From a virus, in the UHGV virus genome UHGV-0354001: DNA of 39,506 nucleotides, one strand, 5' to 3'. Positions 3,001 to 6,000 of the stretch are shown piece after piece. Within the stretch, counting starts at the first letter, position 1; every line of letters starts with the position of its first letter. A program made the position numbers.

Positions 3001-6000
3001 ATTATCGCGTCCTCAACAATGAATTTTGTGATGCGGTGCCTGGTGCCTCCAGGTGACGTTAACCAGTTAACAATTAACGCCGGATACAGAGAATCCACCC
3101 ATAACACTGTTTTTGGTTTTAACTGTTCCGCGTGCGCTTAGCCGCATTCACTGCATCACAAAATTCACTTTAAAAAGGGTGGCAGAGCAGTCACGGAGTA
3201 GAACTGATGCCACCAAAGACTACACATGGATATTGTGGCGGGGCTGTCACTTAAGCGTATGGTCAGCCTGACAACCCGGTGTCCTCAAGGGGAAGGAATA
3301 ACCCCGCCATACTTACCGCCGCGCCATTTCGCGGATTGCCACAACCGGAAGCGCACGGTCGAATTAAATTTAACGACAAAGTACAGAGAGACGAGCTTCT
3401 CCGTGTGCTTTCGCGTTATGCTCTGACTTTTCAGAGAAATATCCTTTCAGTAAACTGTCAGTGCCGGATGTTCACCCGTGTCCGGCGCACGCACTCCACT
3501 TCACCCGTGGAGAACTCCTTAATTACCAACCTTAGCTTCGTTGGTTAGCTATTAACGCGGGTATGTAATCATTCTGGCAATGCTTAATGCCGCTGCTTTT
3601 TCCAGATTGGTGATATCCTGCTCCAGAGCGGACAGATTTTCAGCCTGCTTAGCCCTGGCTTCATTGGCCCATTTCAGATCCTGCGCTGCATTAATTTTCT
3701 GGCGCATCCACTCATAAAGTTCATCATCGGTATAGTCTGGCGCGATGATGACGGGTTCTCGTTTCTGCATGTCGGCTCCTTGTGGTTAGCGTTGCCTGCT
3801 TTTAACCACGTCAGGCGAGGTGGTATCCTCTGAGGGGTCTGTTACTCGAGAGGAAATTGGTTATGAGTACAATCAAGTTTTCTTGCCCAGAATGTGGTGG
3901 CGAAGTCTTTGACACATCCTTTAAGCCGCAGGGCTCTGACAGTTTCGCGGGAGCCATCTGCAAAAATTGTGGTCACCTTGTAACTGAAGATGAGTCCTCG
4001 CAGTTCGATGACGAAATCGTTGACAATATCTTCGGTGCACTCACCAGAGACTTTCTGAAGTAAAGGCGCATACCGCTTAGTTACCGCTCTGATAATTCTT
4101 ACCTGTCCGGCAATGGCGCTGATGTCAATATAAAGCGCCATTGCTGCTTCTTTGCCGATCCCGGGATGCCTTCCATTCTGATGTTTGACTTCGCCCACTG
4201 AGAAATCCTCTGTTTCCCCTTAACGCCGGGGTAGCGGAACAAAAACCTGCTGCATAGTTATTAAAGTTGAACCCTGCCGTCATGTTCTTACGCCTCGGGC
4301 TGGCTACTTAACCCCTGACCACTGCCTGGTAACTCGAAGTATTGCCCTGCATTCTGTGGGGCGGGGTGGGTGGCAGGTATATAATGTACTTTGCGTTCAT
4401 TGTTGTAAAGTACTTTTAGTACATTTTGTGTGTAAAAAAATGAGATGGGATAAAGTGAAGCACAAACCCGGAGGAAGGCGCTACCGGATTTATGCTGGTT
4501 TAAGAGGCTTTTTGTTTTTTCTTTCGTGCTAACTCTTCGTAAATTGCATTGTACTTCTGTTTTTTCTCTTCAAGAGTTTTTAAAAGTTCATCTGTCTCAC
4601 TGTCAGGGAGCTCGTCCAGAAGGTCAATGATGATTTTTTGTCTTGGATTTAACTCCTGATAGAAACGTACCTGTCCACTTTCTTCTGTATCCTCTCCCAA
4701 AAGATAGGTTGGTGTTGTTCCTATTAGTGTTGCTAATTCCCTTAATTTCTCCCGGCGAGGAATTGTTTCGCCATTAAACCATTTGCTAACCGCTTTTGGT
4801 GTTAATTTCATTCGACGGGCAATTTCTGCCTGCCTTCCATGTTGTTCATAACCAGCGTTTTCACAGGCTAGCGCAAGCCTACTGGCGAACTCTTTACGCG
4901 CTTTATCTTCATGAACCATGAGTTCAATGATATTCGCTCTTGAATGTACTGTCAGTTCTGTTATAGCATGTACTCAAAGTTCACATTGTGAGGGTGATAT
5001 GAACCAGAAAACACTTGAAGATGTAATCAAAACTGTTCGCGTTGCTGTTGTGGCCGACGTTTGTGGTGTCAGCCAAAGAGCAATCTATAAATGGATGGAT
5101 AACGGAAAATTGCCTCGCACAGAATATACCGGCGAAACAAATTACGCTGAAAAAATCGCTCTTGCATCAAACGGATTATTTTCTGCCGATGCAATTTTAA
5201 CTATTGGCAGGAATAAAACTACTACGAAAAAGCTGATGGGAGTTGATTCATGAAAATCAAGCATGAACACATCCGCATGGCGATGAATGCCTGGGCGCAT
5301 CCGGACGGCGAAAAAGTACCGGCTGCGAAAATTACCAAAGCGTATTTCGAACTGGGGATGACGTTCCCGGAACTGTACGACGACAGCCATCCGGAAGCCC
5401 TGGCCCGTAATACCCAGAAAATTTTCCGCTGGGTGGAGAAGGACACCCCTGATGCTGTTGAAAAAATTCAGGCGCTGTTACCGGCGATCGAAAAGGCGAT
5501 GCCGCCTTTGCTGGTGGCCCGTATGCGCAGTCACAGTTCTGAATATTACCGGGAGATCGTCGAACGACGGGATCGGCTGGTGAAAGATGTGGATGATTTT
5601 GTCGCTGTAGCGATCGCCTGGGGCACCCTGACTAACAGTGGTGGTCAGCCTGGTAATGCTGTTGTTGTGCATTGACCAACAATATTTATACCGGATTTCT
5701 TCCGGAAGTTCGTGGGTAAAGTTCGGTATCAGAAGAGGTGAGTATGGCTAATGCCTGGCTCAGATTGTGGCATGACATGCCAAATGACCCCAAGTGGCGA
5801 ACGATTGCCAGGGTATCAGGACAGCCAATCGCAACAGTGATGGCAGTGTATATCCACCTTCTGGTGAGCGCGTCACGAAATGTCACGACATGTCACGGCG
5901 TGTCACTACGTGGTCACATTGATGTCACGACGGAAGATTTAGCAAGTGCGCTTGATGTGACGGAAGACGTAATTGATTCAATTTTGCATGCAATGCAGGG

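What the first reader, a model, noticed from the sequence alone, without database searches (positions are those of the whole stretch)
3771..4499. Antisense zinc-ribbon small ORF in the early-left operon leader
A 66-aa plus-strand ORF with two CxxC pairs and a good RBS lies antisense to the minus-strand operon, between the repressor and the ydfC-like gene. It conflicts with an overlapping 118-aa minus-strand GTG ORF (3842..4198). Qin has ydfA and ydfB in this position, so one small gene is expected, but which strand codes is unresolved.
Basis: seen in the sequence. Interest (0 to 1): 0.4.

Follow-up and report, generated by a model that had tools for sequence, protein, structure and literature searches.

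The report
Two genes on opposite strands
The same 200 bases of an E. coli prophage appear to encode two different conserved proteins, one on each DNA strand, which would be an unusually clean and directly testable case of antisense overlapping genes.

Summary
A 66-aa plus-strand ORF with two CxxC pairs (3863-4063) lies wholly inside a minus-strand ORF (3842-4198; conserved core 3842-4141, 99 aa).

The "which strand" question has the answer "most likely both".

**Plus ORF.** It belongs to NCBIfam NF047912 (57 bits, cutoff 37) and is annotated in RefSeq. Its four Cys, its length, its stop, its Shine-Dalgarno (SD) site and an extended -10 promoter are conserved.

**Minus ORF.** This is PHROG 21318, the ORF that GenBank phage records annotate. 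It is never interrupted in 149 loci. It runs 27 codons beyond the plus ORF, where omega is 0.54 (p=7e-5). In relatives it has its own ATG and SD, and it always runs with the early operon.

**Overlap.**
- dNN/dNS = 0.63 (p=0.002).
- Changes silent in one frame are unusually conservative in the other, in both directions (P&lt;1e-4).
- Three control genes from the same loci show no such effect in their antisense frame.

**Natural control.** In a clade where the plus gene sits alone among chromosomal genes, the minus gene is broken. There the pattern reverts to ordinary single-gene evolution.

Expression and function are untested. The likeliest reading is a zinc-ribbon gene expressed in the lysogen, overlapped by the first gene of the early-left (lytic) operon.

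The parts
3863..4063 (+). 66-aa acidic protein (pI about 4.2): two CxxC pairs followed by an acidic C-terminal part. Member of NCBIfam NF047912 (ECs_2282 family putative zinc-binding protein).
   Evidence: - ORF found.
- NF047912 scores 57.3 bits against a cutoff of 37.
- RefSeq annotates it as WP_016235604.1.
- Four Cys, M1, ORF length (except a 4-codon in-frame deletion in L217) and stop position are conserved in 13 prophage-embedded lineages.
- omega+ is about 0.35-0.45 in embedded copies and about 0.15 in standalone copies.
- pI.
3842..4141 (-). 99-aa mildly basic protein (PHROG 21318), start ATG 4141-4139, stop 3844-3842. It covers the whole plus ORF in the same codon register. The first 27 codons (4141-4064, called region A in this report) lie outside the plus ORF.
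   Evidence: - ORF and its conserved core.
- phrog_21318 match at 1.9e-66 over the full length.
- Never interrupted in 149 loci.
- Region A: omega 0.54, p=7e-5, with conservative replacements (P<1e-4).
- Overlap: dNN/dNS 0.63 (p=0.0017), and minus-frame replacements are conservative (P<1e-4).
- AlphaFold2 gives pLDDT 73.
4142..4198 (-). Possible N-terminal extension of the minus ORF from GTG 4198 (118-aa version). A GAGGA Shine-Dalgarno motif lies 7 nt upstream, within 4206-4211.
   Evidence: - ORF, sequence.
- This is the version annotated in GenBank phage records.
- Polymorphisms here show no coding pattern: about 7/2/4 at minus codon positions 1/2/3, counted by hand from the list.
- Relatives start at the position of ATG 4141. 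The extension is therefore probably not conserved protein.
3800..3829 (+). Promoter-like element for the plus gene: -35 TTTAAC (3801-3806), 17-nt spacer, extended -10 TGgTATCCT (3821-3829).
   Evidence: - Read from the sequence. It falls below the threshold of the simple consensus scan.
- TGnTATCYT or TGGTATTCT is conserved upstream of the plus ATG in all lineages except L008/L009 (which have TATATCCT) and L204 (upstream sequence not available).
- It is also conserved in the standalone copies, where the surrounding operon is absent.
- Function is inferred, not shown.
3848..3856 (+). Shine-Dalgarno sequence of the plus gene (GAGAGGAAA).
   Evidence: Seen. An SD at the same distance is present in every lineage even where the flanking sequence is unrelated: AAGAAGGAAG, GAGGAGG, AAGAGGAG.
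4381..4409 (-). PL-like early-left promoter (TTTACA, 17 nt, CATTAT), just downstream of the repressor gene. It would drive the minus ORF, ydfC, DicF and dicB.
   Evidence: A consensus match of 9 of 12 positions. Its role is inferred from position only.
4108..4146 (.). Palindromic 13-bp hairpin (CGGCAATGGCGCT, 13-nt loop, AGCGCCATTGCTG; -23 kcal/mol). It contains the minus ATG, and lies about 45 nt downstream of the plus stop.
   Evidence: RNAfold result. A shorter hairpin at the same place occurs in most relatives, partly built from different base pairs (L173), but is weak or absent in L204. Its role is unknown.
3793..3853 (-). Two hairpins on the minus transcript between the minus stop and the ydfC ribosome-binding site: 3853-3827, and GCCTG...CAGGC at 3815-3793.
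   Evidence: - Fold: z-score -1.65, not significant.
- The first hairpin is replaced in relatives by CTTGG...CCAAG at the same place.
- The segment 3793-3829 is also present in Qin-type prophages that lack this cassette (hits H62-H65).

Best explanation
Window 3842-4141 is a dual-coding cassette of lambdoid prophages: one stretch of DNA read on both strands into two unrelated conserved proteins.

**Plus strand.** It encodes a 66-aa acidic protein with two CxxC pairs (NCBIfam NF047912). The gene carries its own extended -10 promoter and Shine-Dalgarno (SD) site and points against the early operon. It behaves like an autonomous 'moron' (a self-contained accessory gene carried by a prophage). I infer that it is the product made in the lysogen, when the early promoters are repressed.

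**Minus strand.** It encodes a 93-103-aa (here 99-aa) mildly basic protein (PHROG 21318). This is the first ORF behind the PL-like early-left promoter; in some relatives it lies behind cro in the early-right operon. It is co-transcribed with ydfC, DicF and dicB, so I infer it is made only after derepression.

**Consequence of the arrangement.** The two mRNAs are fully complementary and the promoters face each other. The arrangement itself should therefore make expression reciprocal, through transcriptional interference and antisense pairing.

**Shown here**
- Both ORFs, with their start signals, are conserved.
- Both frames are under purifying selection.
- The minus-frame constraint vanishes where the minus gene is broken.

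**Inferred, not shown**
- Transcription and translation of either strand.
- The lysogenic/lytic split of expression.
- Zinc binding.
- Any biochemical function. My guess is host or phage interference, such as superinfection exclusion, by analogy with phage Fc02.
For: **Plus gene**
- NF047912 scores 57.3 bits against a cutoff of 37. Divergent members score 50-56 bits.
- PGAP annotates it in the source genome.
- Four Cys, the ORF length (except a 4-codon in-frame deletion in L217), the stop position and an SD are conserved in all lineages.
- In the E. coli clade, segregating mutations fall 19/8/3 at plus codon positions 3/1/2.
- Standalone copies keep the ORF, the -10 element and the SD, and evolve 7/9/43 at positions 1/2/3.

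**Minus gene, outside the overlap**
- In the 27 codons of region A, omega is 0.54 (p=7e-5).
- Replacements there are conservative: mean BLOSUM62 1.53 against 0.43 expected (P<1e-4). This uses only lineages found with the plus protein.
- Four relatives with unrelated upstream sequence each supply an ATG with a strong SD at the conserved start: GGAGAGGAAATGATG, GGAGGCAGGAAAAATG, AGAGGTGAAAAATG, CAGGAGCAGAAATG.
- The ORF is always co-oriented with the surrounding early operon, on the left or the right arm.

**Minus gene, inside the overlap** (39 alleles)
- Rates per mutational opportunity, by mutation class (first letter = effect in the plus frame, second = in the minus frame; S synonymous, N nonsynonymous): SS 1.08, SN 0.56, NS 0.37, NN 0.23.
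- NN is below NS (p=0.0017) and SN is below SS (p=0.03).
- Among mutations silent in the plus frame, accepted minus replacements have mean BLOSUM62 0.53 against 0.02 expected (P<1e-4).
- Using only codons with a single change: 0.58 against 0.05 (P=0.0003).
- Three control genes from the same loci show none of these effects in their antisense frame (P 0.11-0.59; SS about equal to SN; NN about equal to NS).

**Natural control**
- Branches with an intact minus gene: 68/30/89 at plus positions 1/2/3; minus-frame bias significant (P=0.0002).
- Branches of the clade with a broken minus gene: 7/9/43; bias absent (P=0.73).
- The two distributions differ (Fisher p=1.6e-4).

**ORF integrity**
- The minus frame is open in all 149 loci. 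The plus ORF carries a nonsense allele in 23.
- None of 80 Ser codons is TCA and none of 46 Leu codons is TTA or CTA in the plus ORFs.
- A conservative joint estimate of chance openness is about 1e-5 for either frame.

**Structure**
- AlphaFold2 gives the minus protein pLDDT 73 from only 11 sequences.
Against: - There are no expression data for either strand. Promoters and SDs are sequence-level predictions, and the plus promoter is below the threshold of the consensus scan.
- Within the E. coli clade alone, the overlap looks almost like a plus-only gene: 7 synonymous and 23 nonsynonymous changes in the minus frame, and the minus-frame BLOSUM test gives only P=0.07.
- In this window the minus ATG has a weak SD and sits inside a 13-bp hairpin.
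- Much of the minus-protein similarity is forced by conservation of the plus protein. Even the broken copies keep a recognisable '..TT..AD....VR..RYR..' string and stay stop-free across the plus ORF. ORF openness alone is therefore weak evidence.
- The tests use neighbour-joining trees with parsimony on recombining, partly saturated phage sequences, and SS sites are few (10-14 events).
- Some lineages (L172, L177) were found with the minus profile, which is an ascertainment bias. The key tests were repeated on, or include, lineages found with the plus protein.
- The plus ORF carries a nonsense allele (E14*) in 22 of 149 loci.
- AlphaFold2 confidence for the plus protein is low (pLDDT 58).
- Neither protein has a detectable relative of known function.
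Confidence: 0.7

Rival explanations
1. Only the plus-strand zinc-ribbon gene codes. The minus ORF is a 'shadow' ORF that stays open because TTA, CTA and TCA codons happen to be avoided, and it looks conserved because the plus protein is conserved.
For: - RefSeq annotates only the plus gene.
- E. coli-clade polymorphisms are mostly nonsynonymous in the minus frame.
- The register frame is also stop-free, and still looks similar, in standalone copies where the minus gene is clearly truncated.
- The minus protein has no Pfam or NCBIfam family.
Against: - Region A lies outside the plus ORF and still shows omega 0.54 (p=7e-5) with conservative replacements in the minus frame only.
- ATG and SD are supplied independently in unrelated upstream contexts.
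- Plus-silent mutations are filtered for conservative minus replacements (P<1e-4). This is not seen in three control genes or in the broken-partner clade.
- dNN is below dNS (p=0.0017).
Confidence: 0.17
2. Only the minus-strand gene codes, as phage annotators call it. The plus CxxC ORF is a by-product.
For: - GenBank phage records and PHROGs annotate the minus ORF.
- It runs with the operon.
- It is never interrupted, while the plus ORF has nonsense alleles in 23 of 149 loci.
Against: - All four Cys codons require a fixed third base (A) in minus Ala/Thr codons across all lineages.
- The plus stop is always opposite a minus Leu that uses the rare codons TTA or CTA.
- NS is below SS (p=0.001), and plus replacements are conservative (P<1e-4).
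- Standalone copies keep the plus ORF, its promoter-like element and its SD after losing the minus gene, and evolve with omega about 0.15.
- The plus protein passes the NF047912 cutoff.
Confidence: 0.03
3. The extra constraint on the minus strand acts at the RNA level, not the protein level. Examples would be a structured leader or antitermination RNA of the early operon, or an antisense regulator of the plus gene.
For: - A conserved palindromic hairpin in region A, and hairpins after the minus stop.
- The position directly behind the early promoter, where lambdoid phages carry nut or put RNA elements (general knowledge).
Against: - RNA structure does not explain the three-base periodicity in phase with the minus frame (35/24/58 at minus positions 1/2/3).
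- It does not explain amino-acid-conservative replacements.
- It does not explain stop avoidance.
- It does not explain independently supplied SD and ATG signals.
- The hairpin is not universal (L204).
Confidence: 0.08

Closest known systems
NCBIfam NF047912, ECs_2282 family putative zinc-binding protein
   Same: The plus ORF scores above the curated cutoff, has the same length and has the same two CxxC pairs. RefSeq names it this way in the source genome.
   Different: The family has no known function. Its annotation ignores the conserved ORF on the other strand.
PHROG 21318 (phage protein family of unknown function)
   Same: The minus ORF matches the 99-position profile end to end at 1.9e-66. 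GenBank phage records annotate this ORF.
   Different: No function is known. It has no Pfam or NCBIfam model. It has not been recognised as overlapping NF047912.
Pseudomonas phage Fc02 olg1 / gene 10 (PMC9936078)
   Same: A temperate phage carries, next to the repressor, a gene on the lysogen-transcribed strand. That gene is overlapped on the opposite strand by a gene of the lytic operon (abstract).
   Different: - The phage (a beetrevirus) and the proteins are unrelated to those here.
- In Fc02, transcription of both strands and exclusion activity were shown experimentally.
- Here only comparative evidence exists and the function is unknown.
Antisense overlapping genes reported in E. coli O157:H7 and P. 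aeruginosa (for example PMC9927249, PMC5960689, PMC6294744, PMC8850804)
   Same: Protein-coding ORFs lie antisense to another coding gene. The frame relation here is sas13, called '-1' in Scherer's nomenclature.
   Different: - By their abstracts, those are mostly novel ORFs embedded in annotated, well-known genes, and they are supported by RNA-seq and ribosome profiling.
- Here both partners are small, and they are co-inherited as a mobile cassette across several enterobacterial genera.
- Selection is seen on both frames, and there is a natural broken-partner control.
- There are no expression data here.
ydfA-ydfB cassette of Qin-type prophages
   Same: It occupies the same slot, between the DicA-type repressor/early promoter and ydfC-DicF-dicB.
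   Different: It consists of two tandem minus-strand genes (DUF1391 and ydfB). It is unrelated in sequence to either protein here.

Membership tests
NCBIfam NF047912 (ECs_2282_CxxC) | HMM score at or above the curated cutoff (37 bits) | tested here: met
   57.3 bits, E=1e-15, covering profile positions 1-56 of 60. Divergent relatives score 50-56 bits.
NCBIfam NF047912 (ECs_2282_CxxC) | Two CxxC pairs that bind zinc | not testable with these tools
   The four Cys are present and invariant. Metal binding needs biochemistry. The AlphaFold2 model has low confidence (pLDDT 58).
PHROG 21318 | Full-length HMM match | tested here: met
   1.9e-66, residues 1-99 against profile positions 1-99 of 99.
Antisense overlapping protein-coding gene pair | Both ORFs are kept intact across divergent homologs | tested here: met
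   - Both ORFs are intact in 13 prophage-embedded lineages, down to about 45% (plus) and 35% (minus) identity.
- The minus frame is open in 149 of 149 loci and the plus ORF is intact in 126 of 149.
Antisense overlapping protein-coding gene pair | Purifying selection on both reading frames | tested here: met
   - dNN/dSN = 0.42 (p=1e-10) and dNN/dNS = 0.63 (p=0.0017).
- Both frames show conservative-replacement bias (P<1e-4).
- Controls are negative.
- The minus-frame signal is lost where the minus gene is broken.
- Region A has omega 0.54.
Antisense overlapping protein-coding gene pair | Both strands are transcribed and both ORFs are translated | not testable with these tools
   Only sequence signals are available: a PL-like promoter, a conserved extended -10 upstream of the plus ORF, and an SD for both ORFs. 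The literature searches found no paper on this locus.
Prophage moron (autonomous accessory gene with its own promoter and terminator) | Own promoter and terminator, independent of the surrounding operon | tested here: inconclusive
   - The extended -10 and the SD are conserved, including in copies outside prophages.
- No canonical terminator is present. The downstream hairpin lacks a clear U-tract.
YdfA (DUF1391) / YdfB | Sequence similarity to DUF1391 or YdfB | tested here: not met
   - Neither ORF matches DUF1391 in Pfam.
- hhalign of Tritos YdfA against the minus-protein alignment gives probability 0.06%.
- Tritos YdfA itself matches DUF1391 at 1.2e-27.
Known anti-phage defence systems (PADLOC) | HMM match to a defence protein | tested here: not met
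   Only weak zinc-ribbon noise for the plus protein (E=0.002), and nothing for the minus protein.

The most novel reading that the evidence does not exclude
Probability: 0.1. Interest if true: 0.9.

Novelty: new member of a known kind. Interest (0 to 1): 0.7.

Why it matters
Whether antisense ORFs in bacteria make functional proteins is still disputed (for example PMC7457138). Most proposed cases are young ORFs supported mainly by ribosome profiling. This locus offers the complementary kind of evidence.

- **Evolutionary depth.** A pair is co-inherited across E. coli, Citrobacter, Klebsiella, Enterobacter, Serratia and metagenomic phages. Selection is seen on both frames, matched control genes are negative, and there is a natural loss-of-partner control.
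- **Prevalence.** The locus is common. A match covering at least 80% of the region occurs in 820 of 5,426 complete E. coli genomes, including O157:H7, which carries several copies.
- **Annotation conflict.** Databases currently contradict each other. RefSeq calls one strand, while phage records and PHROGs call the other.
- **Testability.** Because the two frames share codon boundaries, single-base mutations can stop one protein while being silent in the other. A3875T stops the plus protein only; T3883A stops the minus protein only. This makes a decisive experiment easy.
- **Biological setting.** The cassette sits at the head of the operon that makes DicF and DicB, which links it to prophage control of host cell division.

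Tried and rejected
**Searches that found nothing useful**
- The genome-contig scan with the minus alignment returned no confirmed locus. I did not use the second scan.
- The afdb50 fold library was unavailable.
- Foldseek against viral structures found nothing at E below 0.1.
- PDB sequence searches found nothing for either protein.
- PADLOC gave nothing.
- Pfam gave only sub-threshold zinc-ribbon noise for the plus ORF and nothing for the minus ORF.
- Searching papers for ECs2282 / ECs_2282 found no paper. Three further searches on overlapping genes and on ydfA-dicB found no description of this pair.

**Ideas rejected**
- That the minus protein is a YdfA/YdfB relative.
- That the minus protein is a lambda N-type antiterminator. 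It has no arginine-rich N-terminus and is predicted to be folded. This is inference only.
- That the 118-aa GTG-start form is the conserved protein. The extension 4142-4198 shows no coding pattern and relatives start at the position of 4141.
- Using ORF openness as the main argument. The register frame is also open in copies where the minus gene is broken.
- Simple pairwise codon-position counts. They were ambiguous (20/10/26), so I replaced them with class-specific rates, conservative-replacement tests and controls.
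Full report
**What is there**

The window is a lambdoid prophage identical to one in E. coli APEC O18. On the minus strand lie:
- a DicA-like repressor (4500-4919; HTH_3, and a sub-cutoff match to NCBIfam DicA NF007257)
- a PL-like promoter (4409-4381)
- ydfC (3552-3770)
- the DicF sRNA (3177-3228, Rfam 61 bits)
- dicB (2814-3002, Pfam 1.7e-37)
- ydfD and an exonuclease gene.

- The plus ORF runs 3863-4063 (66 aa), with CPEC and CKNC motifs and the Shine-Dalgarno (SD) sequence GAGAGGAAA.
- The minus ORF runs 3842-4198 (118 aa from a GTG start).

The two share codon boundaries: plus position 1 is minus position 3. This is frame 'sas13' in the nomenclature used by OLGenie.

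Comparison with relatives shows that about 3830-4212 is a swappable cassette. Phage Tritos and Qin-type prophages carry ydfA (DUF1391) and ydfB there instead. Those genes are unrelated to either ORF here.

**Databases disagree**

- RefSeq/PGAP annotates the plus ORF as 'ECs_2282 family putative zinc-binding protein'. The ORF passes the curated model NF047912 (57.3 bits against 37).
- GenBank phage records annotate the minus ORF instead. It is PHROG 21318 (1.9e-66).
- None of the six records examined (Tritos lacks the cassette) annotates both.

**Both ORFs travel together**

Searches with the plus protein, with the minus protein and of contig collections recovered 13 prophage-embedded lineages. 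They come from E. coli, Citrobacter, Klebsiella, Enterobacter, Serratia and metagenomes. Identity falls to about 45% for the plus protein and about 35% for the minus protein.

In every one of these lineages:
- The plus ORF is intact, with the same start and stop positions. It has 66 codons, or 62 after an in-frame deletion in Serratia.
- The minus ORF is intact (93-103 aa, longer in the Enterobacter type).
- The minus ORF runs in the direction of the surrounding early operon. That holds on the left arm, as here, and behind cro on the right arm in L008/L009.

These points rest.

In 149 loci the minus frame is never interrupted. The plus ORF carries a nonsense allele in 23 of them: E14* in 22 and E44* in 1.

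**The plus ORF is a gene**

- The four Cys are invariant. This forces a fixed third base in the opposite Ala/Thr codons.
- The plus stop always lies opposite a minus Leu that uses the rare codons TTA or CTA.
- An SD is present at the right distance even where the upstream sequence is unrelated.
- Within the E. coli clade, 30 segregating mutations in the overlap fall 19/8/3 on plus positions 3/1/2.
- A clade of standalone copies (L218-L222) sits between ordinary chromosomal genes: a molybdopterin oxidoreductase, two penicillin-binding-protein genes, and an MFS transporter. These copies keep the ORF, the -10 element and the SD, and evolve 7/9/43 at positions 1/2/3 with omega about 0.15.

**The minus ORF is also a gene**

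*Outside the overlap.* The first 27 codons (4141-4064, called region A here) lie beyond the plus stop.
- I used only lineages that had been found with the plus protein, aligned codon by codon.
- The minus frame has 74 synonymous and 101 nonsynonymous events, against 92 and 235 mutational opportunities. That gives omega 0.54, p=7e-5.
- Accepted replacements are conservative: mean BLOSUM62 1.53 against 0.43 expected, P&lt;1e-4.
- The plus-register frame shows no such bias there.

*Start signals.* Four relatives with unrelated upstream sequence each supply an ATG with a strong SD exactly at the conserved start.

*Inside the overlap.* I classified parsimony-inferred substitutions on a tree of 39 alleles by their effect in each frame. 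Each class is written plus effect first, minus effect second (S synonymous, N nonsynonymous).
- Rates per kappa-weighted (transition/transversion-weighted) opportunity are SS 1.08, SN 0.56, NS 0.37 and NN 0.23.
- Minus frame: dNN/dNS = 0.63 (p=0.0017) and dSN/dSS = 0.52 (p=0.03).
- Plus frame: dNN/dSN = 0.42 (p=1e-10) and dNS/dSS = 0.34 (p=0.001).
- OLGenie's authors report that dN/dS in this frame tends to be overestimated, so these values are conservative.

*Conservative-replacement test.* This test does not depend on rates.
- Among mutations silent in the plus frame, the minus replacements that were accepted are far more conservative than random plus-silent mutations. Mean BLOSUM62 is 0.53 against 0.02 expected, P&lt;1e-4, stratified by transition and transversion.
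- The reverse holds for the plus frame: 0.82 against -0.03.
- Restricting to codons with a single change gives the same result: 0.58 against 0.05, P=0.0003.

**Controls**

- Three ordinary genes from the same loci were run through the same pipeline: DUF2303, YfdP and a ParB-like gene. They show the expected signal in their own frame and none in the register-matched antisense frame. There, SS is about equal to SN, NN is about equal to NS, and the BLOSUM test gives P 0.11-0.59.
- The standalone clade is a natural control. Its minus gene is visibly broken, by a frameshift between region A and the overlap in L222 and by loss of region A and of any ATG in L219 and L218.
- On the branches of that clade the minus-frame bias is absent: -0.63 against -0.49 expected, P=0.73. 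The codon-position spectrum is that of a single gene (7/9/43).
- On the other branches the bias is present (0.50 against -0.20, P=0.0002) and the spectrum is 68/30/89.
- The two spectra differ (Fisher p=1.6e-4).

**Stop-codon avoidance**

- None of 80 Ser codons in embedded plus ORFs is TCA, and none of 46 Leu codons is TTA or CTA. A-ending codons make up 19% of four-fold codons.
- With the phage's codon usage, the chance that the antisense frame is open is 2-21% per lineage. A conservative joint estimate is about 1e-5 for either frame.
- I give this little weight, because the frame is also open in the three broken copies.

**Caveats**

- Nothing here shows transcription or translation.
- Within E. 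coli alone, the minus signal in the overlap is weak: 7 synonymous against 23 nonsynonymous changes, and BLOSUM P=0.07.
- In this window the minus ATG has a weak SD and lies in a 13-bp hairpin (4108-4146, -23 kcal/mol).
- The upstream GTG at 4198 has a better SD, but its 19-codon extension shows no coding pattern.
- The trees are neighbour-joining with parsimony on recombining, partly saturated sequences, and SS sites are few.
- Two lineages (L172, L177) were found only through the minus profile.

**What the proteins are**

- **Plus protein.** It is acidic (pI about 4.2, net charge -7 to -12). It has an N-terminal C4 motif and an acidic C-terminal part predicted to be helical. Its remote hits are to the N-terminus of a 194-position PHROG of unknown function (phrog_4852, 1.2e-9), and weakly to Lar-like restriction-alleviation proteins (E=0.008).
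- **Minus protein.** It is mildly basic (pI 9-10). It is predicted as three helices, a beta hairpin and a helix (pLDDT 73, pTM 0.53, from 11 sequences). It has no convincing structural or sequence relative.
- Function is therefore unknown for both.

**How it most likely works (inference)**

- The plus gene behaves as an autonomous moron (a self-contained accessory gene). Its own promoter fires against the early operon, so it should be the product present in lysogens.
- The minus gene is the first ORF of the repressor-controlled early transcript, so it should appear on induction.
- The convergent promoters and the fully complementary mRNAs should make the two states mutually exclusive.
- The closest experimentally studied analogue is Pseudomonas phage Fc02. 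There, a gene on the lysogen strand next to the repressor is overlapped by a lytic-operon gene on the other strand, and both give superinfection exclusion (PMC9936078).

**Verdict**

- This makes the locus a new, well-controlled member of the small class of antisense overlapping gene pairs.
- It is easy to test, because single-base changes can knock out either protein while being silent in the other.

Noticed in passing
window 3177-3228 (-), and 2983-3186 (-): DicF sRNA is present (Rfam RF00039, 61 bits against a gathering score of 48). A sub-threshold STnc100-like match (33 bits against 47) spans the stretch between DicF and dicB.
   Followed up: no
window 3902 and 3992; loci L033, L035, L039, L078, L193, L212: The plus ORF carries a nonsense allele E14* (GAA to TAA, 22 of 149 loci) and E44* (1 locus). 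The minus frame stays intact: F to L at position 3902 and a silent Leu at 3992. In that E. coli prophage subclade only the minus gene can be functional.
   Followed up: partly
L218 123-341; L219 2373-2576; L220 1221-1424; L222 3095-3298: Standalone copies of the zinc-ribbon gene lie between chromosomal genes (MFS transporter, two PBP genes, molybdopterin oxidoreductase). They keep the -10 element and the SD, but the minus gene is frameshifted or truncated. The source organisms are unknown.
   Followed up: partly
window 4108-4146; same place in L004, L008-L011, L172, L173: A palindromic hairpin lies at the start of the minus ORF, downstream of the plus stop. It is kept partly by different base pairs in L173 and is weak in L204. 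In the window it encloses the minus ATG. It could be a plus-strand terminator or stabiliser, or a brake on minus translation.
   Followed up: partly
window 3793-3829: A 37-nt segment upstream of ydfC contains the putative plus-gene -35/-10 and a GCCTG...CAGGC hairpin. It is 100% conserved in prophages such as those of BL21 that lack the cassette (hits H62-H65). It may therefore also serve the ydfC operon, for example in RNA processing.
   Followed up: no
L011 and L012, 4094-4510 (-); L094-L112: In the Enterobacter-type lineage the minus ORF has no ATG at the conserved start. Instead it continues upstream into an extra N-terminal segment with its own CxxC motif (…NKCKSCGYVELTLHVD…), giving 126-137 aa.
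   Followed up: no
L011 3323-3823 (+): A SieB (superinfection exclusion, PF14163) gene lies directly upstream of the zinc-ribbon gene and in the same orientation. It too runs antisense to the early-left operon.
   Followed up: no
L216 3224-3695 (O157:H7 F7508): In an O157:H7 prophage, a RelE/RelB toxin-antitoxin pair sits between the cassette and the repressor region. The table lists up to 7 matching places per O157:H7 chromosome.
   Followed up: no
L011 and L012, 4001-4300 (P0010): The Enterobacter zinc-ribbon gene is annotated as a 99-aa protein starting from an upstream ATG. The conserved 66-aa start with its SD lies internally, so this is probably a mis-called start.
   Followed up: no
window 2596-3141 (+), 3226-3548 (+): Several long plus-strand ORFs lie antisense to the dicB-DicF region, for example a Cys-rich 181-aa ORF at 2596-3141. 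I did not examine them. They may simply be shadow ORFs.
   Followed up: no
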